Part shown: positions 15,647-60,404 of the stretch, piece by piece
Layout of the letters: every line of letters starts with the position of its first letter
Numbering within the stretch: the first letter of the stretch is position 1
Source of the DNA: a virus
Lineage: Duplodnaviria; Caudoviricetes
Direction: 5' to 3' (one strand)
Length of the DNA: 64,000 nucleotides
Virus record (IMG/VR): IMGVR_UViG_3300048579_000388
Location: 1 to 64,000 of that record
Translations under genes and position numbers: made by a program
Notes under the pieces: generated by a model
What the model was told of the DNA's origin: nothing
Seen by the model: only the letters and a program-made list of their open reading frames with translations
Database searches by the model: none

Positions 15647-16909
15647 CTATTCATTTTTTCCTCCATCGATAATCCGGACCTTGCCTTGTGAGTGCATTGT
15701 GGGAGCAAGCAGGCTTCTGCGGGTGTACTTTTGGAGCTTGAGGATGATCTCTTCGGTCGCGCGAGCGGGCGCGTCGAGGTAGTCGGGATCGAATTTTTCA
15801 TACCAATCCGTCGTCGACGAGCCGCTGCGAACCCGGTGGCCGAGCCATAGGGATCGCTGCTCACGCGACACGGCGACCTTGGTGCGGCGCATGTAGGACG
15901 CGATGAAGTGGCGCAGGATGTAGCAGGTCATCTCAGGCATCCAGCCGGGATAGATGATCTCGCCGGAATCGCTCACGCGTTGGTCGCGGCGGCCGATCTT
16001 GTTGATGCGCTTTTCGACGACGTCCTGATAGCCGGCGATGGGACGATCGTCCTTCCAGTGCTCCAGCCATGCGGCCAACTGCGTCGTCAGCCGGAGGACA
16101 GGCCGGCGTTTCTTGGTCTGGCGGCGGCCCTTCGGGTTGAGATCGATGAGACCGAATTCATAGTCGACCTGCTCGCTCACGCGCAGATCGAAGATGGCTT
16201 CATTGCGCGCCGCCGTGTTGAGGGCGATGATGACATAGCGGAAATCATCATCCTCCTCGATCCTGTCAATCCACTTGCCGAGCTCCTGGAAGGTCGGCAG
16301 GTATTCGCGCGGGCCGTTGATGTTGAGGCCGAGGTAGTTGGCGATCTCGGCTTCGTCGCAAAAGACCGGGACCGATTCATCGAGCAGGCGCACTTCTGTC
16401 TCCTCGTCGTCGACCATGATGATCTGCGGCAGGGCGCAATAGTTAAGCGCGGCGCGCACCGAAATCATGTAGGTCGAGATGGATTTAGGCGTGAGGCCGG
16501 CGTGGCGGGCCATATGCGACCAGACCTTCTGCTGATTGATGCGGGTGAGACGGGCGACGGTTGGCACGAGCTCGATCGTCGTCATGGCATCGTTGACCAG
16601 CTGGGCCGCGCGGCGGGCGGCCGCCATCTGCTTATAGCCTGCCGGCTCGGCCTTGTATTTCAGGTAGTGGGCGAGGGCGTCGACGAGATAGACCTGGCTC
16701 GGGGCTTTGGAGGAGATGCCTTTGCCGGCGAGAGCTTCGATGAGTTCGTCTTTTGCGTCGGGTAGATCAGTTGCAAGGAGCGCTTTACGCTTAACGCGTC
16801 GGCTTCCGTCATCATACCAATATCGGTAGTAGCCGGGCCGTCCTGGCTCTTGTCCGATCCATTGTCCCTTATATTCGAAGAGCCCCCGAGATCCTCGCTC
16901 TCGTCGCAT
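15647..16909 (-). CDS. int: Tyrosine integrase
   Basis: TAARNEAI, ILRHFIA, WLGH and WY motifs; GAGGA precedes start 16909. Confidence 0.88.
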   Translation of the reverse strand: MRRERGSRGLFEYKGQWIGQEPGRPGYYRYWYDDGSRRVKRKALLATDLPDAKDELIEALAGKGISSKAPSQVYLVDALAHYLKYKAEPAGYKQMAAARRAAQLVNDAMTTIELVPTVARLTRINQQKVWSHMARHAGLTPKSISTYMISVRAALNYCALPQIIMVDDEETEVRLLDESVPVFCDEAEIANYLGLNINGPREYLPTFQELGKWIDRIEEDDDFRYVIIALNTAARNEAIFDLRVSEQVDYEFGLIDLNPKGRRQTKKRRPVLRLTTQLAAWLEHWKDDRPIAGYQDVVEKRINKIGRRDQRVSDSGEIIYPGWMPEMTCYILRHFIASYMRRTKVAVSREQRSLWLGHRVRSGSSTTDWYEKFDPDYLDAPARATEEIILKLQKYTRRSLLAPTMHSQGKVRIIDGGKNE

Positions 16910-17106
16910 GTAAAATCCTCGTTGAAGGCGCGCTCGAGATCGCTGCGCGCGTAGACCTGCTTCCCCTGCCTGCCGCTGAACACCCGGATCATGCGGGCCT
17001 TGCGCCAGCGCGAGATGATTTGTGCGCTCAGCCATGGGTAGTCGTCAAGCGCAGCGTCATGGGTGATCAGGTCGGCAAAAGTCACGGGCTGGAACGGCTG
17101 GGTCAT
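16660..17106 (-). CDS. Excisionase-like HTH protein overlapping the integrase 5' end
   Basis: WLSAQIISRWRKARMIRVFSGRQGKQVYARSDLERAF; position upstream of int. Confidence 0.55.
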   Translation of the reverse strand: MTQPFQPVTFADLITHDAALDDYPWLSAQIISRWRKARMIRVFSGRQGKQVYARSDLERAFNEDFTCDESEDLGGSSNIRDNGSDKSQDGPATTDIGMMTEADALSVKRSLQLIYPTQKTNSSKLSPAKASPPKPRARSISSTPSPTT

Positions 17107-18628: not shown

Positions 18629-19330
18629 CTAGCGCGCATATGACGATCCTCCGTCGTCACTCCACGCCGCGATGGCGACGGGTGCGATCTGTGCGGCGAG
18701 CGTCCGCATCGCCTCGGCGTAGAGGCGGATCTCGTATTGCGCGTGAGGATCCATGCGCAGGTCGAGAAAGCCGAGAAGGTTGCGCAGGTCGACCTTGGCG
18801 AACATGTGGCTGTAGGTCGAGACGGGCAGGAGCGCGCGCGCGAGCTCTCGCGGCCAACCTTTGTCGAGCAGAGTGCGATAATGCTTGAAGGCACGTTCGC
18901 AGCTCGCGCGGTAGAGCTCTACCTCGTGGAAGCGATTACCGATATCGTCTTCGGTACGAAGTGCCTCGCGGCCCTGCTTGTTCGACGTCGACTGCTTTCC
19001 GATCTCGAGGAAGTCGGGCACGTAAAATTCTTCCGGCAGCTCGCGGTAGCGAGCCGAGAGTTCGTTGAAGGCCCAGGTCCGGTGGCGATGCCATTGGCGG
19101 AAGACGAAGATCGGCGCCTTGACTTCGAACTGGAACTCGACCGCCTCGAACGGCGAGGTGTGCCGGTCACGCCATAGGCGGCGGATCAGGCGGGTATCGG
19201 ATCCTTCGTTCTCTCCGGCGCGCCACGCCGCGTCATAGGAGACGCGGGCCGCGCGCACGATCGAGAGATCGCCGCCCATATGGTCGACGAGGCGGACGAA
19301 TCCGTGATCGAGGACGTCGATCTTGTTCAT
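18629..19330 (-). CDS. thyX: FAD-dependent thymidylate synthase
   Basis: HTSPFE...RQWHRHRTWAFNELSARY signature. Confidence 0.93.
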   Translation of the reverse strand: MNKIDVLDHGFVRLVDHMGGDLSIVRAARVSYDAAWRAGENEGSDTRLIRRLWRDRHTSPFEAVEFQFEVKAPIFVFRQWHRHRTWAFNELSARYRELPEEFYVPDFLEIGKQSTSNKQGREALRTEDDIGNRFHEVELYRASCERAFKHYRTLLDKGWPRELARALLPVSTYSHMFAKVDLRNLLGFLDLRMDPHAQYEIRLYAEAMRTLAAQIAPVAIAAWSDDGGSSYAR

Positions 19331-19557
19331 GATGGGTTCCTTTTCAGATAATCAGCCAGTCGAGCGGCATACCAAGCCGATTTTTCGTAGTCCTCGGCGC
19401 CGTTCTTCTTTGATGCGCGCGCCTGGTATTTGATGATGTTGAACTTCATGGCGCCGAAGAATTCGTCGCGGCTGAGCCACGCCTCGAGGACCTTGATGAC
19501 CTCGTAGGGGTTTTCTGCGCCCCCATAGTGGGATGGATGGTCGACTGCGGCGCTCAT
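19327..19557 (-). CDS. DUF3310 family protein
   Basis: VDHPSHY...NIIKY..RA.KKNG.ED..K..WY. Confidence 0.8.
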   Translation of the reverse strand: MSAAVDHPSHYGGAENPYEVIKVLEAWLSRDEFFGAMKFNIIKYQARASKKNGAEDYEKSAWYAARLADYLKRNPS

Positions 19558-20549
19558 CTTGCGAGACCCCTTTTGATGCCGAGGAAATTGAGCAGGTTTT
19601 GGCTGTCGGCCCAGCCGGCGTGACCGATCCACGCCGCAAGGAATTTCTCCAATCGGGCATGGTCTCCGGCCGCGCGATAGGCTCGGATCTTGCGCTTGGC
19701 GCGTATCACGCTGTCACGGCGCAGCAGCTTATGGTTCGGCCAGATGCGGTAGCCGACGAAATTGACGCCGCGACTGACCGGCTGGATGCTCCATTTGGAA
19801 AAGCGCAGGCCAAGCTGTTCGCGCGAGAGCATCTCGATCGAGGCGCGGACGCGACGGAGGTGCTCGGCCGATTGGCCGAGCACGACGATGTCATCCATGT
19901 AGCGATACCAGTAGTGCTCGCCGAGCGTCTGTTGCAGGTGGCGATCGACGACGCCAGCATAGATGTTGGCGAAGATCTGCGAGGCAAGGTTGCCGATCGG
20001 CAGGCCGATGCCTGATCGTGGCACGATCGTCTCGATCAATCGCTGCGTCGCTCGGCAGGAGATCTTTGCCTCGATTAGGCGCCAGAGTACACCATGTTCG
20101 ATGCAGGCAAAGTAACGCGAGAAATCCGTCTTCAGCGCATAGAGCGGCCCACGGTCACGCGAAAGGCGGCGGAGGTCGGCTTGGAGGGTGATCGCCGCTT
20201 GGTGCGTGCCCTTGCCGGGGCGGCAGGCATAGGAGCGGGGCAGCAGTGTCGCCTCGAAGATAGGGCCGATGATGGCGCAAAGCGCCTGTTGCGCCACGCG
20301 ATCCTCGAATGGAAGCGCGGAGATCAGTCGTTCCTTTGGGTCGAAGATCCGGAACTCCTGCGGCGTACCTGGGCGATAGGCGCCATCGCGCATGGCCTGC
20401 GCGAGGTCGGCGAGGTTGAGCGCAGAGAATTCCTTGAATTCCAGATAGCCAGGCGTCAGCCGTTTGCCGCGCGACGTGAGGCGCAATGCCTCACGCATGT
20501 TCGCATCGTCGGTGATGCGACCGATGAGGTTGCGATATTTCTTGGACAT
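19554..20549 (-). CDS. DGR reverse transcriptase (Brt-like, 331 aa)
   Basis: KER.I.ALPFEDRVAQ, SYACRPGKGTH, LKTDFSRYF, GLPIGNLASQIFAN, RYMDDIV, FVGYRI; next to avd and TR. Confidence 0.95.
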   Translation of the reverse strand: MSKKYRNLIGRITDDANMREALRLTSRGKRLTPGYLEFKEFSALNLADLAQAMRDGAYRPGTPQEFRIFDPKERLISALPFEDRVAQQALCAIIGPIFEATLLPRSYACRPGKGTHQAAITLQADLRRLSRDRGPLYALKTDFSRYFACIEHGVLWRLIEAKISCRATQRLIETIVPRSGIGLPIGNLASQIFANIYAGVVDRHLQQTLGEHYWYRYMDDIVVLGQSAEHLRRVRASIEMLSREQLGLRFSKWSIQPVSRGVNFVGYRIWPNHKLLRRDSVIRAKRKIRAYRAAGDHARLEKFLAAWIGHAGWADSQNLLNFLGIKRGLAR

Positions 20550-20777
20550 GATCCGCGGATGAAAATGAATTTGATGAAAATGCCGGTCGCGGGTTTCGAC
20601 GGCTCTGCCGCTACTCCCCGCTGTACCGGACCTTGAAGTGTATTCGCCTAGGCCGGACGGCTGGGCCGACCACCCCCGTGTTTTGCCAGAGGCAAAATCA
20701 CGATGTTGCCAGCCAGAGGCCGCAACGGTGGAAGATGACCGGCGTGACCGTGACCAGCGCCGCGTCGGAAAAGGGTC
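20550..20777 (-). ncRNA. DGR RNA 3' spacer (structured)
   Basis: Lies between TR and RT; hairpin TTTTGCC-TCT-GGCAAAA at 20681-20697. Confidence 0.55.
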
Positions 20778-20898
20778 GTCGCAGGCGCCGCGCGCCCCGA
20801 TGTTCTCGTTCGAGTTCTCGGGCCAGTAGTCCAAGTTCGCGTAGCGGGAGCCGGCGTTGTCGCCGTTGATCCACGAGCCGCCGAAGATGGAAGGACGC
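20778..20898 (-). repeat. DGR template repeat (TR)
   Basis: 121 bp, 22 adenines, six AAC codons; matches both VRs almost only outside adenines. Confidence 0.95.
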
Positions 20899-20905
20899 AT
20901 CGACA

Positions 20906-21283
20906 TCATTGCCCCGACCGCCCGCTTTGCTTCGCCGTCTTGACCCATTGACCCAGCATCGCACCCGTCTCAGCGAGCGGCCGAAAAACCGTGGCGAGCT
21001 GATGAGGGGTGATGATCCTGATGTCTGGGCGAGCGGCGAAGCGAAGAGAAAAACGCAGCGTCGCGAGATGCGCATCGGCCTCATAGAGGCGCGACGGCTG
21101 TTTCGATTTCGCTGCCTGGTAGAGCAGGCGTACTTGTTCCAGCAACAACCCAATGAGATGGTCGCGCAGCGTGCCGTGTTTGCGCGGTCCAGCCTGGATT
21201 TTCGGGTAGATGTAGTTCAAGGCAACCTCGTATTTTTCGATGATGGCCAGATCGCGCGCGTCGATGTTTTCGTCACGGGTCAT
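20906..21283 (-). CDS. avd: DGR accessory variability determinant
   Basis: 125 aa helical, between target and TR; LYEADAHLATLRFSLRFA...ETGAMLGQWVK. Confidence 0.88.
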   Translation of the reverse strand: MTRDENIDARDLAIIEKYEVALNYIYPKIQAGPRKHGTLRDHLIGLLLEQVRLLYQAAKSKQPSRLYEADAHLATLRFSLRFAARPDIRIITPHQLATVFRPLAETGAMLGQWVKTAKQSGRSGQ

Positions 21284-21312
21284 CTGGAAATTTCCGATTT
21301 CGGGAGGGTCAG

Positions 21313-21332
21313 GCCTGCGCTTCCGCGCAGGC
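21313..21332 (-). promoter_or_regulatory. DGR target-recognition hairpin after VR1
   Basis: GCCTGCGC-GGAA-GCGCAGGC at the stop codon. Confidence 0.85.
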
Positions 21333-22258
21333 TAAGCAGGGCTCAGGTGGCCGCAGGCGCCGCGCGCCCCGATGTATCCGTGCGAGTACCCGGGCCAGTA
21401 GTCCAAGCTCGCGGAGCGGGAGCCGGCGTAGTCGCCGTTGACCCACGAGCCGCCGAAGATGGAAGGACGCGGGATATCCGGGTGTCCATCCGTGCCCCAC
21501 TGCCACACGGTTCCCGTGGCATCGAACAGCCCGTGCTTGCTGATGAAGCGGTGTCCTTCATCGCTCAGCGTGCCGGTGATTTTGGGATCGCGATCGCGCG
21601 AGCATCGCTCTTCCACGCCATAGGCGGCGGCGAAGAATTCTTCGGCAAACAGAAGGCGCTTGCCATGGGCCGCGTAGATTTCGACCGCCGTAGCGTAGTC
21701 AAGCTTCTTTGTCTTTTCGGATCCGTCAGGATGATCCGGCAAATCCCGACCGTCGGCGATAACGGCGCCACAGCGGCTGGTGCCGTGCGCCAGATGGTCG
21801 GTGCCGAGCAGATAGATATCAACCCAGAAGCGGAGGCCATGCATTTCGACGAAGGTCATGCCGCGCGGGTCTTTGCAGGCCGGGCGGAAGTCGAGATCCC
21901 ATAGCGAGAATGGGTTAATCGCCGGAACAGCGTCGCCGCCTGCTTTGCCAAGGGCATTGCCGCCCGGTGCGAAATGGAAGCCGGCGAAGGCGCCGCTGGC
22001 GACAACACCTGGATGTGCCGGCGCCGCGAAGGGCGCGCCCGACACATCGACATCGATGGCGTAATCGCAGCCAGGCTTCAGCTCGTCGGTTTCGATCGCT
22101 GTATCACTGTCGAAGGCGACCTTGCGGCCGTCGATCTCGATCACGGTTCCGCCTCGGATGGCAATGTCGGCGCGGCCTGCGGTGACGAGAATGGATTTCG
22201 AGGCCTCATGGCGGGCGATCCGGATCGGACGCGAAAGGGTTTCTGCAACTGCAGTCAT
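21332..22258 (-). CDS. DGR target 1, Mtd-like C-type lectin-fold protein
   Basis: GFHFAPGG, INPFSLWDLDFRP, DPRGMT, WVDIYLLG, FGGSW...IGARGAC; VR at C-terminus. Confidence 0.9.
   Translation of the reverse strand: MTAVAETLSRPIRIARHEASKSILVTAGRADIAIRGGTVIEIDGRKVAFDSDTAIETDELKPGCDYAIDVDVSGAPFAAPAHPGVVASGAFAGFHFAPGGNALGKAGGDAVPAINPFSLWDLDFRPACKDPRGMTFVEMHGLRFWVDIYLLGTDHLAHGTSRCGAVIADGRDLPDHPDGSEKTKKLDYATAVEIYAAHGKRLLFAEEFFAAAYGVEERCSRDRDPKITGTLSDEGHRFISKHGLFDATGTVWQWGTDGHPDIPRPSIFGGSWVNGDYAGSRSASLDYWPGYSHGYIGARGACGHLSPA
21350..21470 (-). repeat. Variable repeat VR1
   Basis: 11 mismatches to TR: 10 at TR adenines, 1 G-to-A. Confidence 0.95.
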
Positions 22259-22289
22259 GGGTCTATTCCTTGATTGTGGGGAGGGGCAG

Positions 22290-22309
22290 GACTGCGCTTT
22301 CGCGCAGTC
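22290..22309 (-). promoter_or_regulatory. DGR target-recognition hairpin after VR2
   Basis: GACTGCGC-GAAA-GCGCAGTC at the stop codon. Confidence 0.85.
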
Positions 22310-23517
22310 TAAACAGGACGCAGGTGGTCGCAGGCGCCGCGCGCCCCGATGGTCTCGTCCGAGTGCCCGGGCCAGGAGTCCAAGTCCGCGTAGCGGGAGC
22401 CGGCGCCGGCGCCGTCGAGCCACGAGCCGCCGAAGATGGAAGGACGCGAGAAATCCGGATCGCCATCGGTGCCCCAGATGTGCATGTTGCCGGTGGCCTG
22501 CATCAGGCCGAAACGGCTGGTGCGCGGGGCGTCCAGGCAGGTCTGTTCCGGTTCGCGGGGCGCGGCGGACTTCTCGGTCACGCCATAGGCGGCGATGCGG
22601 AACTCGTCGTATGTCGGCAAGCGTTTGCCGTGCTCGGCCATGATTGCCTTTGCCGTTTCGTAATCGAGCTTATCGAGCGACCAGCCATCGGCGATCGTTG
22701 CGCCGCGATGGCTCGTGCCTGATGTCTTGTGGTTGGTGCCGAGCAGGTAGATGTCGAACCAGCAACGGATGCCATCGGCCTCGACGAGCGTCATACCGCG
22801 CGGATCGGGGCAGGATGGGCGGAAGTCGAGATCCCAGAGGGAGAAGGGATTGATGGCGGGCTCACTGTCGCCGCCGGAGCGAGCTTGCGCATGACCACCG
22901 GGCGCGAAGTGGAAACCCGCGAAGAAGCTTGCGTTCAGCGGGTTGGCGCCGACAGGCGTTGCGATCGGCTCGCCTTTGGCGTCGAGCGTGATGGCGTAGT
23001 CGCGGCCCGCCGCCAGATCGGCGATCGGGACCGTGACAGGATTGGGGAACGCGTGCTCCGTCTCGTCGATGCGAATGACCGTGCCGGCGCGGATGGCCAG
23101 CTCAGTCTTGCCGTGGGCTGAGAGAATGGGGAGCGAAACATCCGGGCGCGTGATGAGGGTTGGCGCTCCAGCGCTTCTCGGCGCGGCCGTGACCAGTCGC
23201 GTGACCAATCCAACCTTCTCGCTCGTTGTATTGAACTTTGCCGGCACCGCTTCGCCGAACAGGTCAATGCCTTCATCCATAGCGATAAGGTCAGCGCAGA
23301 TGACGACGTCGGCCAGTTCTTCTGCCAGTTGCTGGCGTGACGCCCGTGATCCAGGCAGGCCGATGCGCTCGCGGTCAATCTTCTTGATGACGTTGCAGGC
23401 TTCGCCGACTTCTCCGGCGAGCTCATTGCCGCGATAAGCGAGTGTGATCTTGTTGTCCTTATCCCATTCCTTCTGGCGCGCGACATTAGCCGAACGCAGA
23501 TCATTGAAGCTGCTCAT
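22309..23517 (-). CDS. DGR target 2: MazG-like NTP pyrophosphohydrolase fused to Mtd-like lectin-fold domain
   Basis: aa 1-108 ELAGEVGE...EELADV...KFN; remainder paralogous to target 1, with VR2. Confidence 0.88.
   Translation of the reverse strand: MSSFNDLRSANVARQKEWDKDNKITLAYRGNELAGEVGEACNVIKKIDRERIGLPGSRASRQQLAEELADVVICADLIAMDEGIDLFGEAVPAKFNTTSEKVGLVTRLVTAAPRSAGAPTLITRPDVSLPILSAHGKTELAIRAGTVIRIDETEHAFPNPVTVPIADLAAGRDYAITLDAKGEPIATPVGANPLNASFFAGFHFAPGGHAQARSGGDSEPAINPFSLWDLDFRPSCPDPRGMTLVEADGIRCWFDIYLLGTNHKTSGTSHRGATIADGWSLDKLDYETAKAIMAEHGKRLPTYDEFRIAAYGVTEKSAAPREPEQTCLDAPRTSRFGLMQATGNMHIWGTDGDPDFSRPSIFGGSWLDGAGAGSRYADLDSWPGHSDETIGARGACDHLRPV
22327..22447 (-). repeat. Variable repeat VR2
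   Basis: 11 mismatches to TR, all at TR adenines. Confidence 0.95.
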
Positions 23518-24656
23518 AGTGTAATCCCCTGGATTTTCATGGGTACGAGGAGGGTGAAATCGTCGGGCTTGCCGACGGGGCGGAGAATGCTGTTGTCGGT
23601 CGCCCGATTGAGCAGAAGTTCGACCTGGTCACCGGCATGATGGGCCAGCGCCTCACTGAGATATTTGCCGTTGAAGGCGATGGTGATTTCGAGATCGGCC
23701 TCGGCCGGGATCTCGTCCTCGCCTTCGCCGGAGCGGAAATCCTTGGCGGCGAGCGTGACGGTGCCGGCCTCGAAGGCGAAGGTCATGCCCTTCGATGCAT
23801 CCGGCGTGGCGATGAGGACGCGCTCGACCGCGCTCGCCATCGCCGCGCGCGAGAACTGGGCCGAATGGCTGTTCTGCCGCGCTGGCCGGGTGAGCGCGCC
23901 CCAGTCAATGAACTGGGCGTCGATCAGCTTCGAGATCAGGGTGATGGTGCCCGCGGTGACCACCATGCGCTCCTCGGCAAAGCCAAGCGTGATATCGTCG
24001 AAATCGCCGGCGAGCTTGAGGATCCGACCGACGGTGTCTGACGGCACCAATGTGGGCGGGATGGATGCGAATGGATCCTCGGGGTCGAAGGCCATGGCAG
24101 GGATCAGGCGCCGCTCGATGCGATATCGATCGGTGGAGACGAGGTTGAGGCCATCCTCGGCGCCCTGCATGAAGACGCCGCAGATATAGAGGACGGTCTG
24201 GTCCTTCGATGTGGCGTATTCCACGGCCGAAAGCGCTTCGGCGAGGATGCCGGAATCAAGCCTGACCTTGTGAGTGAGATTGCCCGCGTCGAGCTTGGGA
24301 TAGTCCGACGCGGGCAGGACCGGCACCTTCAGGCGGGAACGGCCGGATTTGAGATTGATATGCTCGAGGCGGCCGTCTTCGATGATCGGTTCGACCGTGA
24401 TGGCGGTGTCGGGGGCTCGCTTGACGAACTCCACCATCGGCTGGATGGGGCAGGTGAAGGGCGTGAAGCCCGATGCTGCGGTTGCTTCGAAGGTGCAGGT
24501 CAGCTCGATATCCATGCTGCTGCCGCGCGCGACGAAGGTTTCGTTCTCACGGGTTATGAGAACATTCTGCAGAATGGGCGTCGTGTGCTTCGGCCGGATG
24601 GCCGGCTGCACGGCCGCGAGCGCCGCGGCGAGGGCGGCCTTGTCAGCTTTGAGCAT
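23514..24656 (-). CDS. dnaN: DNA polymerase III beta sliding clamp (phage copy)
   Basis: TPILQNVLI, VSTDRYRI, LISKLIDAQFIDW, IAFNGKYL; 380 aa. Confidence 0.9.
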   Translation of the reverse strand: MLKADKAALAAALAAVQPAIRPKHTTPILQNVLITRENETFVARGSSMDIELTCTFEATAASGFTPFTCPIQPMVEFVKRAPDTAITVEPIIEDGRLEHINLKSGRSRLKVPVLPASDYPKLDAGNLTHKVRLDSGILAEALSAVEYATSKDQTVLYICGVFMQGAEDGLNLVSTDRYRIERRLIPAMAFDPEDPFASIPPTLVPSDTVGRILKLAGDFDDITLGFAEERMVVTAGTITLISKLIDAQFIDWGALTRPARQNSHSAQFSRAAMASAVERVLIATPDASKGMTFAFEAGTVTLAAKDFRSGEGEDEIPAEADLEITIAFNGKYLSEALAHHAGDQVELLLNRATDNSILRPVGKPDDFTLLVPMKIQGITL

Positions 24657-24849
24657 GGAGAGCTTCCTTTGCACGGCCGCTATTGATTCGCCGGACGAGG
24701 CGCAACTCGTCCTGCGGCGGACGAAGACCTTCGCCCTTGTAGCGGTCAAAGAGGAGAGTTAGGGCCTCCTCGCAATCGCCTTCGGCGATGGTGCGATAGA
24801 GATTTTCGACCCAGACATGGAAGGGTTCATTGCCAGGATGCATGGTCAT
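24643..24849 (-). CDS. Small hypothetical protein
   Basis: 68 aa between ssb and dnaN. Confidence 0.5.
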   Translation of the reverse strand: MTMHPGNEPFHVWVENLYRTIAEGDCEEALTLLFDRYKGEGLRPPQDELRLVRRINSGRAKEALHAQS

Positions 24850-24853
24850 TTTC

Positions 24854-25363
24854 CTAGAACGGGATGTCGTCGTCCATGTCCCGGCTGAAGCTGGGCGGAG
24901 ACGATGATGTTGATCGGCGGGAATTCGACTGCCCCCCCGTCGAGCGGCCGGCAGCGCGGTCGCTGTCGTAGCCGTAATCGTCGGGCTCGCCAGCGGGCGG
25001 TCGATTGGAAGGCTGCTTGTCGAGCAGGTCGAGGGCGCAGTTGAAACCCTGCAGCACGACTTCGGTCGTGTAGCGGTCTTGGCCGGACTGATCCTGCCAT
25101 TTGCGGGTGGTCAGATGGCCCTCGATAGCGACGAATGATCCCTTGTGGACGCGCTCTTCGCAGAGCTTCGCCAGCCCCTCGGCGAAGATGACGACCGTGT
25201 GCCATTCGGTCTTTTCCTTCCACTCGCCGGATGCGCGATCCTTCCAGCTTTCGGAGGTCGCGATCCTGAGATTGGCGATCGGGCGCCCGTCCTGGGTGCG
25301 GCGGATCTCCGGCTCAGCGCCGACATTGCCGCGCAGCATCACTCGGTTCATGTAGCGGGACAT
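24854..25363 (-). CDS. ssb: Single-stranded DNA-binding protein
   Basis: NRVMLRGNVG.EPEIR...TEWHTVVIF...DDDIPF. Confidence 0.95.
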   Translation of the reverse strand: MSRYMNRVMLRGNVGAEPEIRRTQDGRPIANLRIATSESWKDRASGEWKEKTEWHTVVIFAEGLAKLCEERVHKGSFVAIEGHLTTRKWQDQSGQDRYTTEVVLQGFNCALDLLDKQPSNRPPAGEPDDYGYDSDRAAGRSTGGQSNSRRSTSSSPPSFSRDMDDDIPF

Positions 25364-25731
25364 CAGGCGACCTCTGCGTTGGCGATGGGCGGAGAAGACT
25401 GCGGCGGCTCGGCCGGCATGCAGGCGGCGATGCCGAGAAGCGCGGTGGCGAGAATATGGATGTGCTGCGATCCGGTCAGCGCGATCGGATCCGAGGCGCA
25501 GACGGCGATAGCGAGCTCGATCGCCTTGTCTGGATCGACCGGGCCAACGATCAGGCGGCCGCCTGGCGCGGTGAGGACGAAGCAGCCCTCGTTGTAGACC
25601 GCGACGGCCGGTGAGCCGTCCTTAGCCGTGCCTGTCCTGACCTCGCCACCTTCGATCACCGAGTAGATGGCGCGTCCCTTGGGCAAGGTGACGAGCGGCT
25701 CGGGTGCGATGCGGATTTCGTCGCGCTTCAT
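25363..25731 (-). CDS. Hypothetical protein
   Basis: 122 aa from MKRDEIR; overlaps neighbours. Confidence 0.55.
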   Translation of the reverse strand: MKRDEIRIAPEPLVTLPKGRAIYSVIEGGEVRTGTAKDGSPAVAVYNEGCFVLTAPGGRLIVGPVDPDKAIELAIAVCASDPIALTGSQHIHILATALLGIAACMPAEPPQSSPPIANAEVA

Positions 25732-26399
25732 GCGAGCCTCGCCTGGGCTGCGATCGCCGAACGATGCGCGATGCGCTCTGGCGTGATCATGTCGCTCAGC
25801 ATGACGACAAATTTTTCCTCTGCGACGCCGGGCAACCACGGCTTGATTGCCCCCGTCGTCTTGGGAATGGTTAATTTGGGAAACTGGCGCTCGGCGCGCT
25901 TGCCAAACAGGGCGACGGCTTCGGCCGCGCACATGCGATCGTCCATCGCCTTCACCAGTTTCCGCTGTTTCGGCGACCACTCGGCCGGCAGCGGCAGGCC
26001 GGCGGCGAGATAGATCACATCGTCCCAGCGCGCCTTGGCGAGGTTGATGGCCTCTTTAACCGCCAGCGTCGGCAGCATGCCGCAGAGCAGCTGTTCCATC
26101 GGTCTGGTTATGTCGCCCAACGCCCATTCATGTGCGTCATGCAGCAGGAAGAGTGCTGCAGTCTGTTTGTCAGCACCTTCATTGATCAGTGCTTGAGCGC
26201 CCATCACAGAGTGCTGCGCGACCGAATAGGCAAGGCCGCCAGGAATGCCATTGAAGCGGGCGATGCGTGAGAGCGTGCCAGAGATCTCGATAAAGCAGAC
26301 CGAGGCCGGATCAGGCTGGGCCAGATCCTTGATGGTACCGTCGCGATTGAAGGACGGAATCATTCGATCGACCAGGCGTGGGAGATTGGCTGCCTTCAC
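25728..26399 (-). CDS. HD-domain phosphohydrolase (YfbR-like 5'-deoxynucleotidase)
   Basis: LSRIARFNG...YSVAQHSV...LLHDAHE..LGDI; GTGA start/stop overlap. Confidence 0.85.
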   Translation of the reverse strand: MKAANLPRLVDRMIPSFNRDGTIKDLAQPDPASVCFIEISGTLSRIARFNGIPGGLAYSVAQHSVMGAQALINEGADKQTAALFLLHDAHEWALGDITRPMEQLLCGMLPTLAVKEAINLAKARWDDVIYLAAGLPLPAEWSPKQRKLVKAMDDRMCAAEAVALFGKRAERQFPKLTIPKTTGAIKPWLPGVAEEKFVVMLSDMITPERIAHRSAIAAQARLA

Positions 26400-26656
26400 T
26401 CGACACTCCATTCGGCGCGGCGCTGGCGCGCAAAGCCTTCGAAATTGGGGAATTTTTCGTCGATGGCGGCATGGTTGCCCGCCACAAAACAGGCCGCGAA
26501 TTCATGCGGCATGTCGCAGCCTTCCTCGGCGACGAAATCCATCGCCACCCGCCAAGGGATGGTGCCGGCCTCTATGATGGCGCGGCTGCGGATGAACTGC
26601 CATGCGACAACGAGCAGGAGGATGAAGACGAGAGCGGTGAGGAGGGTGGTCAGCAT
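26396..26656 (-). CDS. Small membrane-anchored protein
   Basis: N-terminal hydrophobic helix. Confidence 0.55.
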   Translation of the reverse strand: MLTTLLTALVFILLLVVAWQFIRSRAIIEAGTIPWRVAMDFVAEEGCDMPHEFAACFVAGNHAAIDEKFPNFEGFARQRRAEWSVE

Positions 26657-58180: not shown

Positions 58181-59403
58181 CCATAGCAACACGTCATCGC
58201 GGAGGCTTGATGGGCATGGAGCATGCCCGCAAGCTCGACAAGATCAAGGCGGATATTCTGCTCAGCGATCCCGCCGCCTATGGCGATATTGCGCCGACGC
58301 TGGATCTCGACTTCACCAATATCTATGGCGCGCCGTTTCCGGGGAATTTTAGCCGCCCCACCATTGGCGGCTACCGGTTGAATGCCAAGGGCGTGATGGT
58401 CCCGACCGTGGCCAATGAGCCGAATATTGATTTCGGGACCGATGGCAAGCCGCTCGGGACCGGGTTCTACGGCGCCTATACGAACCTGTTGACGTGGTCC
58501 GAAGACTTCACCAATGCAGCTTGGACGAAGGGGCCAAATGTAACGGTCACCCCAAACAACGTGGCAGCCCCTGACGGGAACCTAACGGCTGATCGCATTG
58601 CCGCCAGCAGCGGCGACAATGCTATGTCTCAGAGCGCATTGGTCACCGGCAACCAGTACTACACCTTTAGTATTTGGCTGAGATCAGACAGTTCAATCGG
58701 CCTGACCTTGCTCATTTTCGACGGAACGGGGGGCGGAAACACCACCCTTAATGTCACCGCGACGACCGACTGGCAGCAGTTCAGCCTGACGAGGCTCGTG
58801 CCGGCGGGGCAAACTGGTGTTGTTTGTTACATCGGCGGCGCGGGATCATTTACGAACGAGACTATTTACGCCTGGGGTGCTCAGCTCACCGCCACCGCTT
58901 TCCCGGTTCCCTATGTGCCGACCACATCGGCAACGGTGGCTCGGAATGCGGATGTCTTCTTACTGTCCGGCACTGATGTAACCGATGCCGCGAACTCGCT
59001 TGAAGGCACGTTCTATGCGGAGGCGTATGCGCCGCGCAGCCTCTCCGGCTATCCAGCTCTGCTTCAGCTCGATGACGGCGGGTTCAACAATCGCAGCGTC
59101 ATTTTCTACAACAGTGCGGGGCAAGCAATCGGAGCAGGAACCGACGTCGCAGCCGTCAACACTGCCACCTTTACTTCGCAGACAATCAGCCGCGGCTCTT
59201 TCTTCCGGTTGGCTTACACGTACAAGGCCAACGCCTTCGTCTTTGTTGTGAACGGTGCTCCAATCCTGACGGACACCGCTGGTGCAGTGCCCAGCGGCAT
59301 GAACCGCATCCGGATCGGGGATACCTGGGATGAGCACATCCGCCGAGTCATCTACTGGCCCAAGGCGTTCTCCGCGCTCGACATGAAAAGGATCACGGCA
59401 TGA
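58177..59403 (+). CDS. Tail fiber/spike protein 2, paralog of the fiber 1 C-terminal half
   Basis: PTLDLDFTN...[14 protein letters not shown]...IRRVIYWP. Confidence 0.8.
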
Positions 59404-60404
59404 TCGGTCTCGCGTCACGCCTTGCCCGTGGTTGGATGGGCTCTGGACATGTCCAGAAGCTGGAAGTCCATTCGCCCTACACGCCGGACAATGACCCGAC
59501 GCTGGCGGCGAATTCGGCAAGCCGTTACGCCACCCAGCAAGCCGTCAAAGGCTATGTGGATGGTATTGTCGAGGCGGCCAACGCGCTGCAGTTCAAGAAC
59601 ACGATCGACTGCTCCGGCAATCCGAACTATCCGGCCGCCAATGCCGGCCATTTCTACATCGTCTCCGTCGCCGGCAAGATCGGCGGCGCCTCGGGCCTCA
59701 CCGTCGACGCCGGCGACGCGCTGATCTGCAAGACCGATGGCACCGCCGCCGGCACGCATGCCGCGGTCGGGGCGCAGTGGACGTCGCTGCAGTTCAACAT
59801 GGTGCTGGCGCTGACGCAGTCGGATATCGGCTCACTTGTTCAGGCTTACCACGCTAAACTGGCGGCGCTCGCCGGTCTCTCATCAGCGGCGGCCGACAAG
59901 CTGGCCTATTTCAACGGCGCGAACTCGTTTGCGCTGGCAGACTTCACGACGTTCGGCCGCTCGCTGGTCGACGATGTCGATGCGGCCACAGGGCGGTCAA
60001 CCCTTGGCGTTGCCTGGGAGCAGATTGCCACCGCCAGCATGGCGGGGCTCGCTGCCGCCGACTTCGCGCTGCCAACCGGCTACAAGGCGTTTCGCTTCAT
60101 TGGGTCGGAGATCAGCCTCAACACCAATGGTGAGAATTGGCGCATCGACTATTCAACTAACGGCTCGACCTTCACGACGAACACGCCGATCGCGGCGCTC
60201 AACGCGGCGGATGTCATCTACTGGGACTTCATGATCCATGGGCACCGATCGTCGCTGCCCATGAAGATCACGGGCCACTACCTCAACGCCTCATCCGTCG
60301 TCACCGCTCATATCCAAAGCTACGTTGCCAATGTTCAGGCGATAAGGCTCGCTACAGGCATGCAGTGGGACAGCGGAACCGCAACTCTCTACGGGATGAA
60401 GTGA
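59400..60404 (+). CDS. Tail fiber protein 3
   Basis: [16 protein letters not shown]; LAALAGL...DKLAYFNG...FGRSLVDD...ARSTL-like stalk. Confidence 0.75.

What the first reader, a model, noticed from the sequence alone, without database searches (positions are those of the whole stretch)
22309..23517. DGR-diversified protein fused to a MazG-like nucleotide pyrophosphohydrolase
Seen: the 402-aa ORF has an N-terminal 108-aa module with ELAGEVGE...EELADV...KFN, joined without a stop or internal ATG (junction R-L-V(GTC)-T-A-A) to an Mtd-like domain ending in VR2, which differs from TR at 11 adenines. Known: ExxE/ExxD is the metal site of all-alpha NTP-PPases (MazG family), and some phage MazG-like proteins degrade nucleotides or alarmones such as (p)ppGpp. 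Inference: a hypervariable binding surface tethered to a cytoplasmic nucleotide hydrolase could be an evolvable anti-defence or host-targeting enzyme. I do not know of a characterised DGR target with this architecture.
Basis: partly seen in the sequence, partly recalled or inferred. Interest (0 to 1): 0.93.

Follow-up and report, generated by a model that had tools for sequence, protein, structure and literature searches.

The report
MazG enzyme fused to hypervariable phage protein
A prophage gene really does join an intact-looking nucleotide-hydrolysing (MazG-type) domain to a receptor-binding-type domain that a retroelement is rewriting in nature today; related prophages carry other nucleotide enzymes fused at the same spot, but whether enzyme and binder work together is unproven.

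Summary
On the minus strand, 23517-22309 is one 402-codon ORF. Residues 1-108 form a MazG-type all-alpha NTP-pyrophosphohydrolase module: ExxE-27-ExxD is intact, the AF2 model has pLDDT 94, and every top PDB fold hit is a MazG-superfamily enzyme. Residues 109-402 are 34% identical to Bordetella phage BPP-1 Mtd and end in VR2. VR2 differs from the TR at 11 adenines, and an IMH-like tail and an 8-bp hairpin follow it. Contigs from four metagenome studies span the junction with no difference. They differ from the window only inside VR2, at 18 positions that are all TR adenines. The fusion is therefore real and stable, and VR2 is being diversified now. MazG::Mtd is a singleton in the databases searched. 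Syntenic prophages carry a DUF550 dNTP pyrophosphatase or a nucleoside-deoxyribosyltransferase-like domain fused at the same Mtd start. Split forms and forms with no enzyme gene also exist, and about 95% of relatives are stand-alone. The join is end-to-start with no linker. My best reading (0.5) is a tolerated fusion of neighbouring genes whose halves act independently. A retargetable enzyme or sensor-effector (0.25) is not excluded. It is a new variant of a known kind. The scan noted this same stretch before, on the same DNA.

The parts
22309..23517 (-). 402-aa fused ORF (P0001): a MazG-like module plus an Mtd-like DGR target
   Evidence: contigs from four independent metagenome studies span it without indels
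23194..23517 (-). N-terminal MazG-like all-alpha NTP-pyrophosphohydrolase module (residues 1-108); motif E36xxE39-27 residues-E67xxD70
   Evidence: phrog_229 at 1e-7. 66% identical to the Rhizobium phage RHph_X2_25 MazG-like protein. All family-invariant residues are kept. AF2 pLDDT 93.8 with four helices. The Foldseek top hits are DCTPP1, MazG, MazZ and HisE. Pfam PF03819 scores only 16 bits, below its cut-off of 22.
23182..23208 (-). Fusion junction (L104-A112: LVTRLVTAA). MazG-family homology ends here and Mtd-family homology begins. V109 (GTC, 23193-23191) sits where stand-alone relatives have Met1. There is an in-frame TTG at 23208-23206.
22312..23193 (-). Mtd-like body (mtd_2nd beta-sandwich plus C-type-lectin-fold domain); it lacks the Mtd_N domain
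   Evidence: 34% identical to BPP-1 Mtd over residues 120-399, E about 1e-35 to 1e-37. phrog_11262 at 8.6e-72, profile positions 69-390 of 393. PF21916 scores 23.4 bits.
22323..22447 (-). VR2, the variable region at the C-terminus
   Evidence: 90% identical to the TR, with differences only at A. It varies between four metagenomes at 18 sites, all of them TR adenines, and contigs break at its edges.
22290..22309 (-). 8-bp GC-rich hairpin with a GAAA loop, starting at the last base of the stop codon; a retrohoming target signal like the one in BPP-1
   Evidence: z = -3.4; target 1 has an equivalent hairpin with a GGAA loop
21332..22261 (-). Second, stand-alone Mtd-like target (309 aa) with VR1 at 21346-21470; 52% identical to the Mtd part of the fusion
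20906..21283 (-). bAvd accessory variability determinant
   Evidence: PF22296 at 1.6e-23
20774..20898 (-). Template repeat (TR), with 23 adenines on the coding strand
19554..20600 (-). DGR reverse transcriptase
   Evidence: PF00078 at 1.8e-17
23514..24749 (-). DNA polymerase III beta-clamp-like gene directly upstream; its stop codon overlaps the fusion's ATG
   Evidence: PF00712, PF02767 and PF02768

Best explanation
The gene encodes a genuine two-module protein that arose when the stop/start boundary between two neighbouring early-operon genes was lost. One gene was a MazG-like NTP pyrophosphohydrolase sitting in a variable 'nucleotide-enzyme slot' downstream of dnaN. The other was the first of two Mtd-type DGR targets. 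The whole ORF is probably translated from the ATG coupled to the dnaN stop codon. The C-terminal module works as Mtd-type proteins do: it is a C-type-lectin-fold binding surface whose residues templated by TR adenines are continually rewritten by the adjacent bAvd/RT. That rewriting is shown here to be happening in nature. The N-terminal module keeps every catalytic and family-invariant residue, so it probably still hydrolyses (d)NTPs (inferred). Most likely the two halves act independently. The fusion is tolerated because the N-terminus of this Mtd subfamily is free. It is hard to undo, because a new stop codon would also need a new ribosome-binding site and start codon. So it persists without the enzyme being 'aimed' by the variable domain.
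For: The ORF is real and stable. Contigs from four studies span the junction with 0 differences and no indels. VR2 is an active target. The 11 differences from the TR are all at adenines. The 18 of 18 sites that vary between samples are all TR adenines. An IMH-like tail and a hairpin are present. The N-domain has a MazG fold with an intact motif. The join is end-to-start with no linker. Stand-alone MazG homologues end at ...GLxTRL(x1-6)* and stand-alone Mtd relatives start at MTAA..., and the two meet at TRLVTAA. The same slot in syntenic prophages takes several forms. DUF550 is fused in L001. A nucleoside-deoxyribosyltransferase-like domain is fused in L002, L010 and L089. DUF550 is split in L033, in the same frame and one stop codon away. 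The deoxyribosyltransferase-like gene is split in L085. The slot is empty in L014 and L042. Fusions are rare: 4 of the 120 closest protein clusters, and no large Atlas cluster. This argues against a strong general advantage.
Against: In three loci the deoxyribosyltransferase-like N-domains are 93% identical while the Mtd bodies are only 58-75% identical and the linkers differ. The fusion has therefore been kept or re-made across substantial divergence, which hints at selection. All credible fusion partners are nucleotide-degrading enzymes. Where such a gene directly abuts the first target, it is fused more often than split: 3 fusion types against 2 split cases. The targets sit in the early-left operon about 36 kb from the tail-fibre gene and lack Mtd_N. 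A purely virion-bound role is therefore not established.
Confidence: 0.5

Rival explanations
1. The two halves are functionally coupled as a 'retargetable enzyme' or sensor-effector. The DGR-diversified lectin-fold domain binds a changing intracellular or surface ligand, such as a host defence protein, a competing phage's protein or a receptor. It thereby localises or switches the tethered nucleotide hydrolase, for counter-defence, superinfection exclusion or local nucleotide depletion.
For: The gene lies in the early-left operon between a cI-like repressor and the integrase, among nucleotide-pool genes (ThyX, an HD dNMP phosphatase, DUF3310). It does not lie in the tail module. Mtd_N is absent. 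Three different nucleotide-hydrolysing N-domains are fused at the same position in related prophages, and the deoxyribosyltransferase-like fusion is kept across 58-75% divergence of the Mtd body. The catalytic residues are intact. The N-terminal-domain-plus-C-terminal-diversified-lectin syntax is the rule in cellular DGR conflict systems (PMC7159879).
Against: There is no linker or dedicated interdomain element. Split and empty-slot relatives exist. Only a few percent of the family is fused. MazG::Mtd is a singleton. The partners are simply the genes that lie upstream. No STAND, vWA or other signalling context is present.
Confidence: 0.25
2. The long ORF is mostly a by-product. The Mtd-like protein is made on its own from an internal start, the TTG at L104 (23208-23206), which is preceded by GAGAAGG. 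The cell would then effectively have a MazG-containing read-through form plus a normal 299-aa Mtd-like protein, and the latter does the binding job.
For: An in-frame TTG lies 5 nt after an AAGG-containing purine run. In-frame GTG or ATG codons also sit near the junctions of L001, L002 and P0194. The resulting N-terminus would be a normal length for the family, about 36 residues before the AIRAGT motif.
Against: The ancestral Met1 position is GTC, which is not a start codon. The SD-like string is made of the invariant MazG codons S-E-K-V-G-L, so it would be there anyway. GTG and TTG codons are common in GC-rich DNA. The upstream ATG has a good AGGGGA SD and is coupled to the dnaN stop codon.
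Confidence: 0.15
3. It is an artefact: an assembly or sequencing frameshift, or a recent inactivating lesion in one strain (a pseudogene).
For: It is a singleton protein cluster. Some other 'fusions' in the family are artefactual. The ParB-like::Mtd ORF (L081/P0247) has an Arg-rich, wrong-frame-looking linker. Long open frames upstream of Mtd in L014 and L042 overlap dnaN in another frame.
Against: The junction is identical, with no indels, in contigs from four different studies (2021-2025; activated sludge and other metagenomes). VR2 differs among them, so they are not one assembly. Both modules keep all invariant residues.
Confidence: 0.03

Closest known systems
Bordetella phage BPP-1 Mtd (major tropism determinant) and its DGR (mtd-avd-TR-brt)
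   Same: The mtd_2nd and C-type-lectin body is 34% identical over 280 residues. The VR is at the C-terminus. Mutagenesis is adenine-specific. An IMH-like tail and an 8-bp hairpin with a GAAA loop follow the VR. bAvd and the RT lie downstream.
   Different: There is no Mtd_N domain. The gene sits in the early-left operon rather than beside the tail genes. There are two paralogous targets. This copy carries a 108-residue MazG-like enzyme at its N-terminus.
Stand-alone 'phage major tropism determinant' proteins (~290 aa) of Rhizobium, Agrobacterium, Shinella and Brucella prophages
   Same: They are 54-64% identical to residues 109-402. The cassette order is the same (Mtd-Mtd-bAvd-TR-RT), downstream of a cI-like repressor.
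   Different: They begin with their own Met at the position of V109 and carry no enzyme domain.
Enzyme::Mtd fusions in syntenic prophages: DUF550 (PF04447 dATP/dGTP pyrophosphohydrolase)::Mtd (P0150, L001) and nucleoside-deoxyribosyltransferase-like::Mtd (P0180 L002, P0194 L089, L010)
   Same: They occupy the same slot (SSB-x-DnaN-fusion-Mtd-bAvd-TR-RT). The join is at the Mtd start. Their VRs differ from the TR only at adenines.
   Different: The N-domains are unrelated enzymes. As far as I could find, none of these fusions has been described or tested.
Small phage MazG-like / all-alpha NTP pyrophosphohydrolases (e.g. Rhizobium phage RHph_X2_25 MazG-like protein; structural neighbours DCTPP1/RS21-C6, S-2L MazZ, iMazG)
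   Same: The fold is a four-helix all-alpha bundle with the ExxE...ExxD metal motif. Identity to phage homologues is 63-81%.
   Different: The homologues stop at ...TRL(x1-6) or carry other, mostly unknown, C-terminal extensions. None found carries an Mtd or lectin-fold domain.
Cellular DGR-diversified conflict-system proteins (N-terminal effector or signalling domains plus a C-terminal FGS/C-type-lectin VR; PMC7159879, PMC10907252)
   Same: The syntax is the same: a catalytic or other domain at the N-terminus and a DGR-diversified lectin fold at the C-terminus.
   Different: Those use TvpA-type FGS domains in cyanobacteria and other multicellular bacteria, together with vWA-MoxR or STAND partners. 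Here an Mtd-type domain sits in a prophage with none of that context.

Membership tests
DGR variable (target) protein | A VR near the 3' end that is homologous to a TR, with substitutions confined to TR adenines | tested here: met
   11 of the 11 internal differences are at A; the twelfth is the shared IMH-edge G->C
DGR variable (target) protein | Cis retrohoming signals: an IMH-like VR-specific 3' tail and a downstream hairpin | tested here: met
   The VR1 and VR2 tails differ from the TR tail. There is an 8-bp stem with a GAAA loop at the stop codon.
DGR variable (target) protein | A linked DGR reverse transcriptase and accessory protein | tested here: met
   RVT_1 at 1.8e-17 and bAvd at 1.6e-23, within 3 kb on the same strand
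DGR variable (target) protein | Ongoing diversification of the VR | tested here: met
   In four metagenome studies, 18 of 18 variable sites are TR adenines and the rest of the ORF is identical
MazG / all-alpha NTP pyrophosphohydrolase superfamily | A four-helix all-alpha fold | tested here: met
   AF2 pLDDT 93.8 with helices at 7-18, 26-51, 61-81 and 86-101. The Foldseek top hits are all NTP-PPases, with TM about 0.62 and E from 6e-3.
MazG / all-alpha NTP pyrophosphohydrolase superfamily | The ExxE-(12-28 residues)-ExxD metal-binding motif | tested here: met
   E36-V-G-E39, then 27 residues, then E67-L-A-D70; these are invariant in 30 homologues
MazG / all-alpha NTP pyrophosphohydrolase superfamily | Reaches the Pfam PF03819 gathering score | tested here: not met
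   16 bits against a cut-off of 22. NCBIfam gave no hit. The PDB profile search was weak (1vmg at 0.004). Membership therefore rests on fold, motif and PHROG 229 (1e-7).
MazG / all-alpha NTP pyrophosphohydrolase superfamily | Hydrolysis of (d)NTP to (d)NMP plus PPi; dimer or tetramer assembly | not testable with these tools
   This needs an enzyme assay and SEC-MALS
BPP-1-type Mtd tail-fibre receptor-binding protein | The mtd_2nd beta-sandwich plus a C-type-lectin VR domain | tested here: met
   tblastn 34% identity, E about 1e-35 to 1e-37. phrog_11262 at 8.6e-72. PF21916 scores 23.4 bits, just under its cut-off of 24.6.
BPP-1-type Mtd tail-fibre receptor-binding protein | The N-terminal Mtd_N (PF18454) domain | tested here: not met
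   There is no PF18454 hit. The PHROG profile is matched only from position 69. In this copy the place of Mtd_N is taken by MazG.
BPP-1-type Mtd tail-fibre receptor-binding protein | Encoded with the tail/late genes; a virion component | tested here: not met
   For gene position: the gene is in the early-left operon between the cI-like repressor and the integrase end, and the tail-fibre gene is at 59400-60404. Virion association is not testable here.
Cellular DGR conflict systems (VMAP / iSTAND ternary systems) | vWA-MoxR or STAND NTPase partners and a TvpA-type FGS domain | tested here: not met
   No such domains were found in the neighbourhood, and the domain is Mtd-type

The most novel reading that the evidence does not exclude
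In one lineage of temperate alphaproteobacterial phages, the DGR does not (or does not only) retune a tail fibre. It continually retargets an early-expressed intracellular binding domain that carries a nucleotide-degrading enzyme (MazG, a DUF550 dNTPase or a deoxyribosyltransferase-like hydrolase). This would be an 'antibody-enzyme' used for counter-defence or superinfection exclusion.
Probability: 0.2. Interest if true: 0.9.

Novelty: new variant of a known kind. Interest (0 to 1): 0.58.

Why it matters
Phage DGR targets are almost always read as tail-fibre receptor binders. Here an actively diversifying Mtd-type target lacks the Mtd_N domain and sits in the early operon. In several related prophages it carries a complete nucleotide-hydrolysing enzyme on its N-terminus. 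At the least, this shows that the N-terminus of this Mtd subfamily tolerates bulky cargo, which is useful for engineering DGR or Mtd display scaffolds. It also shows that the first target may not be anchored to the virion the way BPP-1 Mtd is. If enzyme and binder are coupled, this would be the first phage example of a DGR-retargetable enzyme. The element is common enough in wastewater and activated-sludge metagenomes to be followed in nature.

Tried and rejected
- **Single-sequence AF2 of the whole protein:** pLDDT 32, unusable.
- **Complex prediction, MazG module against the Mtd body:** no verdict. It is not evidence either way.
- **The search for related loci with P0001 in viral contigs:** nothing found.
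- **DnaN query against genome contigs:** only one irrelevant distant hit.
- **The look-up of encoding contigs for P0001:** not on record.
- **NCBIfam:** no hit.
- **RNA evidence:** no RNA holder is listed for the stretch, so nothing can be said about expression.
- **Long open frames upstream of Mtd in other loci** (L042, L014, L026, L024, L023, L074, L067, L034): they have no Pfam domain, and in L014 and L042 they overlap dnaN in another frame. I rejected them as fusions.
- **ParB-like::Mtd (P0247/L081):** rejected as a probable wrong-frame artefact because of its Arg-rich linker.
- **P0299 (MTase fragment) and P0250 (unknown N-terminus):** left unresolved.
- **The SD-like GAGAAGG before the internal TTG:** I considered it as evidence for a separate start. 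It is discounted because it is encoded by invariant MazG codons.
- **A 9-nt near-repeat at the junction (TGGTCACG...TGGTCACG):** I considered it as a duplication scar. Both copies encode residues that the MazG family conserves, so it is not informative.
- **Literature searches:** no paper was found that links DGR targets to MazG.

Full report
**What is there.**
The finding's coordinates hold one ORF on the minus strand (23517->22309, 402 aa). Its ATG overlaps the TGA of the upstream beta-clamp-like gene and follows an AGGGGA Shine-Dalgarno. Reading downstream on the same strand, the order is:
- a second, stand-alone Mtd-like gene (21332-22261, with VR1);
- bAvd (20906-21283);
- a 125-nt template repeat (20774-20898);
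- a reverse transcriptase.

The record is a 74.5-kb provirus rated 100% complete, and it holds only this TR and the two VRs. The prophage abuts tRNA-Pro. Its leftward early operon runs: cI-like HTH/S24 repressor, an HD dNMP phosphatase, SSB, the beta clamp, the two targets, bAvd, TR, RT, DUF3310, ThyX, HNH and a putative integrase. Primase, terminase, portal, capsid, tail and tail-fibre genes lie to the right, and the fibre gene is about 36 kb away.

**The DGR target half.**
- Residues 120-399 are 34% identical to BPP-1 Mtd (E about 1e-35 to 1e-37) and match the PHROG 'tail protein' family 11262 from profile position 69 onward.
- The Pfam mtd_2nd score is borderline, and no Mtd_N domain is detected.
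- TR and VR2 differ at 12 sites. Eleven are TR adenines. The twelfth is a G->C at the 3' edge that VR1 shares, where the VR-specific (IMH-like) tail begins.
- An 8-bp GC stem with a GAAA loop starts at the last base of the stop codon. Target 1 has the same structure with a GGAA loop.

**It is being diversified now, and the fusion is not an artefact.**
I laid contigs from four metagenome runs of four different studies (activated sludge and unlabelled metagenomes, 2021-2025) on 22200-23700.
- Outside VR2 they are essentially identical to the window and show no indels.
- In every run a contig spans the junction (23182-23208) with zero differences. One 1206-nt contig covers the ORF from the 3' edge of VR2 (22323) past the start codon.
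- Inside VR2 each run differs from the window at 11-15 positions.
- The 18 distinct variable positions all fall on TR adenines, although only 23 of the 125 TR bases are A.
- Contigs tend to break exactly at the VR edges, and one run shows two variants. This is what within-sample VR heterogeneity would produce.

**The enzyme half.**
- Residues 1-108 are 63-81% identical to a large family of small alphaproteobacterial phage and prophage proteins annotated as MazG-like or NTP pyrophosphatase.
- All family-invariant residues are kept, including E36xxE39-27-E67xxD70, the ExxE(12-28)ExxD signature of all-alpha NTP pyrophosphohydrolases.
- Pfam MazG is below threshold (16 against 22 bits), NCBIfam is silent, and a profile search of PDB sequences is weak.
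- An alignment-based AF2 model is confident (pLDDT 93.8, four helices). Its Foldseek neighbours are uniformly superfamily members: DCTPP1/RS21-C6, AF1178, S-2L MazZ, iMazG, YpjD, HisE and DR2231, with TM about 0.6.
- The fold and the motif are therefore met. Activity is untested.

**The junction.**
Stand-alone MazG homologues end at ...KFNATSEKVGLxTRL plus 1-6 residues. Stand-alone Mtd relatives begin MT(A/T)A... about 30 residues before the AIRAGT motif. In this ORF the two meet at ...GLVTRL-V-TAAP..., with GTC (Val109) where relatives have Met1. The join is thus end-to-start with no linker, which is the signature of a lost stop/start boundary between neighbouring genes. An in-frame TTG (L104) follows a GAGAAGG string, but that string is made of invariant MazG codons. 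It is therefore weak evidence for a separate start.

**Relatives.**
- *MazG::Mtd is a singleton.* It did not turn up anywhere else:
  - among the 120 best of 317 long proteins with this MazG module;
  - among the 120 best Mtd relatives;
  - in an exhaustive HMMER search of 1.8 billion cluster representatives;
  - in 50,697 phage records;
  - in about 85 fetched loci;
  - among the large Atlas clusters.
- *Most relatives are stand-alone.* They are proteins of about 290 aa in Rhizobium, Agrobacterium, Shinella and Brucella prophages with the same Mtd-Mtd-bAvd-TR-RT cassette.
- *The prophages that share the SSB-x-DnaN-target synteny carry other fusions at the same slot.* These are:
  - a PF04447 dATP/dGTP pyrophosphohydrolase (DUF550)::Mtd in L001;
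  - a nucleoside-deoxyribosyltransferase-like domain (phrog_12607, 5.9e-58)::Mtd in L002, L010 and L089.

  Their VRs also differ from their TRs only at adenines.
- *The slot varies in other relatives.* DUF550 is a separate gene in the same frame, one stop codon away, in L033. The deoxyribosyltransferase-like gene is separate in L085. There is no enzyme gene at all in L014 and L042.
- *The three deoxyribosyltransferase-like fusions diverge unevenly.* Their N-domains are 93% identical while their Mtd bodies are only 58-75% identical, and their linkers differ.
- *One apparent fusion is probably false.* The ParB-like::Mtd 'fusion' (P0247/L081) has an Arg-rich, wrong-frame-looking linker and is probably not real.

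**Interpretation.**
Four things are shown:
- the fusion is real and stable;
- its C-terminal VR is under active mutagenic homing;
- its N-domain has an intact-looking MazG fold;
- the fusion belongs to a recurrent but rare pattern (about 3-5% of the family) in which the first DGR target is fused to whichever nucleotide-enzyme gene lies upstream.

My inference is as follows. A zero-linker join, the coexistence of split, fused and empty slots, and the rarity of fusions are most simply explained by a fusion ratchet between neighbouring genes. Stop-codon loss is easy, whereas re-splitting needs a stop codon, a ribosome-binding site and a start codon. The fusion is tolerated because this Mtd subfamily has a free N-terminus. 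I give that reading 0.5.

Some observations keep a coupled 'retargetable enzyme or sensor-effector' reading alive at about 0.25:
- the deoxyribosyltransferase-like fusion persists across divergent Mtd bodies;
- every credible partner is a nucleotide hydrolase;
- the targets sit in the early operon;
- Mtd_N is absent.

Cellular DGR conflict systems provide the conceptual precedent, because their extra domains always lie N-terminal to the diversified lectin fold (PMC7159879). Internal initiation (0.15) overlaps with both readings. An artefact is essentially excluded.

**Novelty.**
The DGR surveys and reviews I could search do not mention MazG, pyrophosphatase or such fusions. I rate this as a new variant of a known kind, a DGR target with an N-terminal enzyme in an Mtd-type phage context. 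Earlier first-stage notes of this scan flagged the same stretch on the same genome. They are not independent support.

Noticed in passing
L002, L010, L089 (loci); proteins P0180, P0194: Three nucleoside-deoxyribosyltransferase-like::Mtd fusions have N-domains that are 93% identical, Mtd bodies that are only 58-75% identical, and different linkers. This points either to mosaic recombination at the junction or to very unequal evolutionary rates.
   Followed up: partly
L033:3644-4888: A DUF550 gene and the first Mtd target lie in the same reading frame, separated by a stop codon and about 14 codons. This is a 'pre-fusion' state that shows how easily such fusions can form.
   Followed up: partly
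window 22323 and 22447 (VR2 edges): Metagenome contigs in several runs start or end exactly at the VR2 boundaries, and one run carries two VR2 variants. This is consistent with within-sample VR heterogeneity breaking the assemblies.
   Followed up: partly
proteins P0002-P0120: The same 108-aa MazG-like module occurs in at least 317 longer proteins (221-704 aa). It sits at the N-terminus, the middle or the C-terminus, next to very diverse and mostly unannotated extensions. These include tandem MazG-MazG forms and forms with DUF4406/Nuc_deoxyrib_tr, DUF551 or Lar_restr_allev domains. In Rhizobium phages it sits next to a DUF2829 gene.
   Followed up: no
L081:2873-4873 (P0247): A called 594-aa 'ParB-like::Mtd' protein has an Arg-rich linker that looks like a wrong-frame translation. 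It is probably a gene-calling or frameshift artefact and not a real fusion.
   Followed up: partly
L002:8001-11256: This related prophage has three Mtd-like targets in a row (one fused and two stand-alone) ahead of bAvd, TR and RT. Other loci (L035, L054, L056, L084) have an extra Mtd copy about 2 kb upstream.
   Followed up: no
window 15647-17035 (-): A 462-aa ORF next to tRNA-Pro, in the position where an integrase is expected, gave no Pfam hit at E <= 1e-3. It may be a divergent tyrosine recombinase.
   Followed up: no
window 18629-26411 (-): The DGR is embedded among nucleotide-pool genes: ThyX (PF02511), DUF3310, the MazG module, and an HD deoxyribonucleoside 5'-monophosphate phosphatase (phrog_318). 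Whether these pool enzymes influence adenine mutagenesis by the RT is an open question.
   Followed up: no
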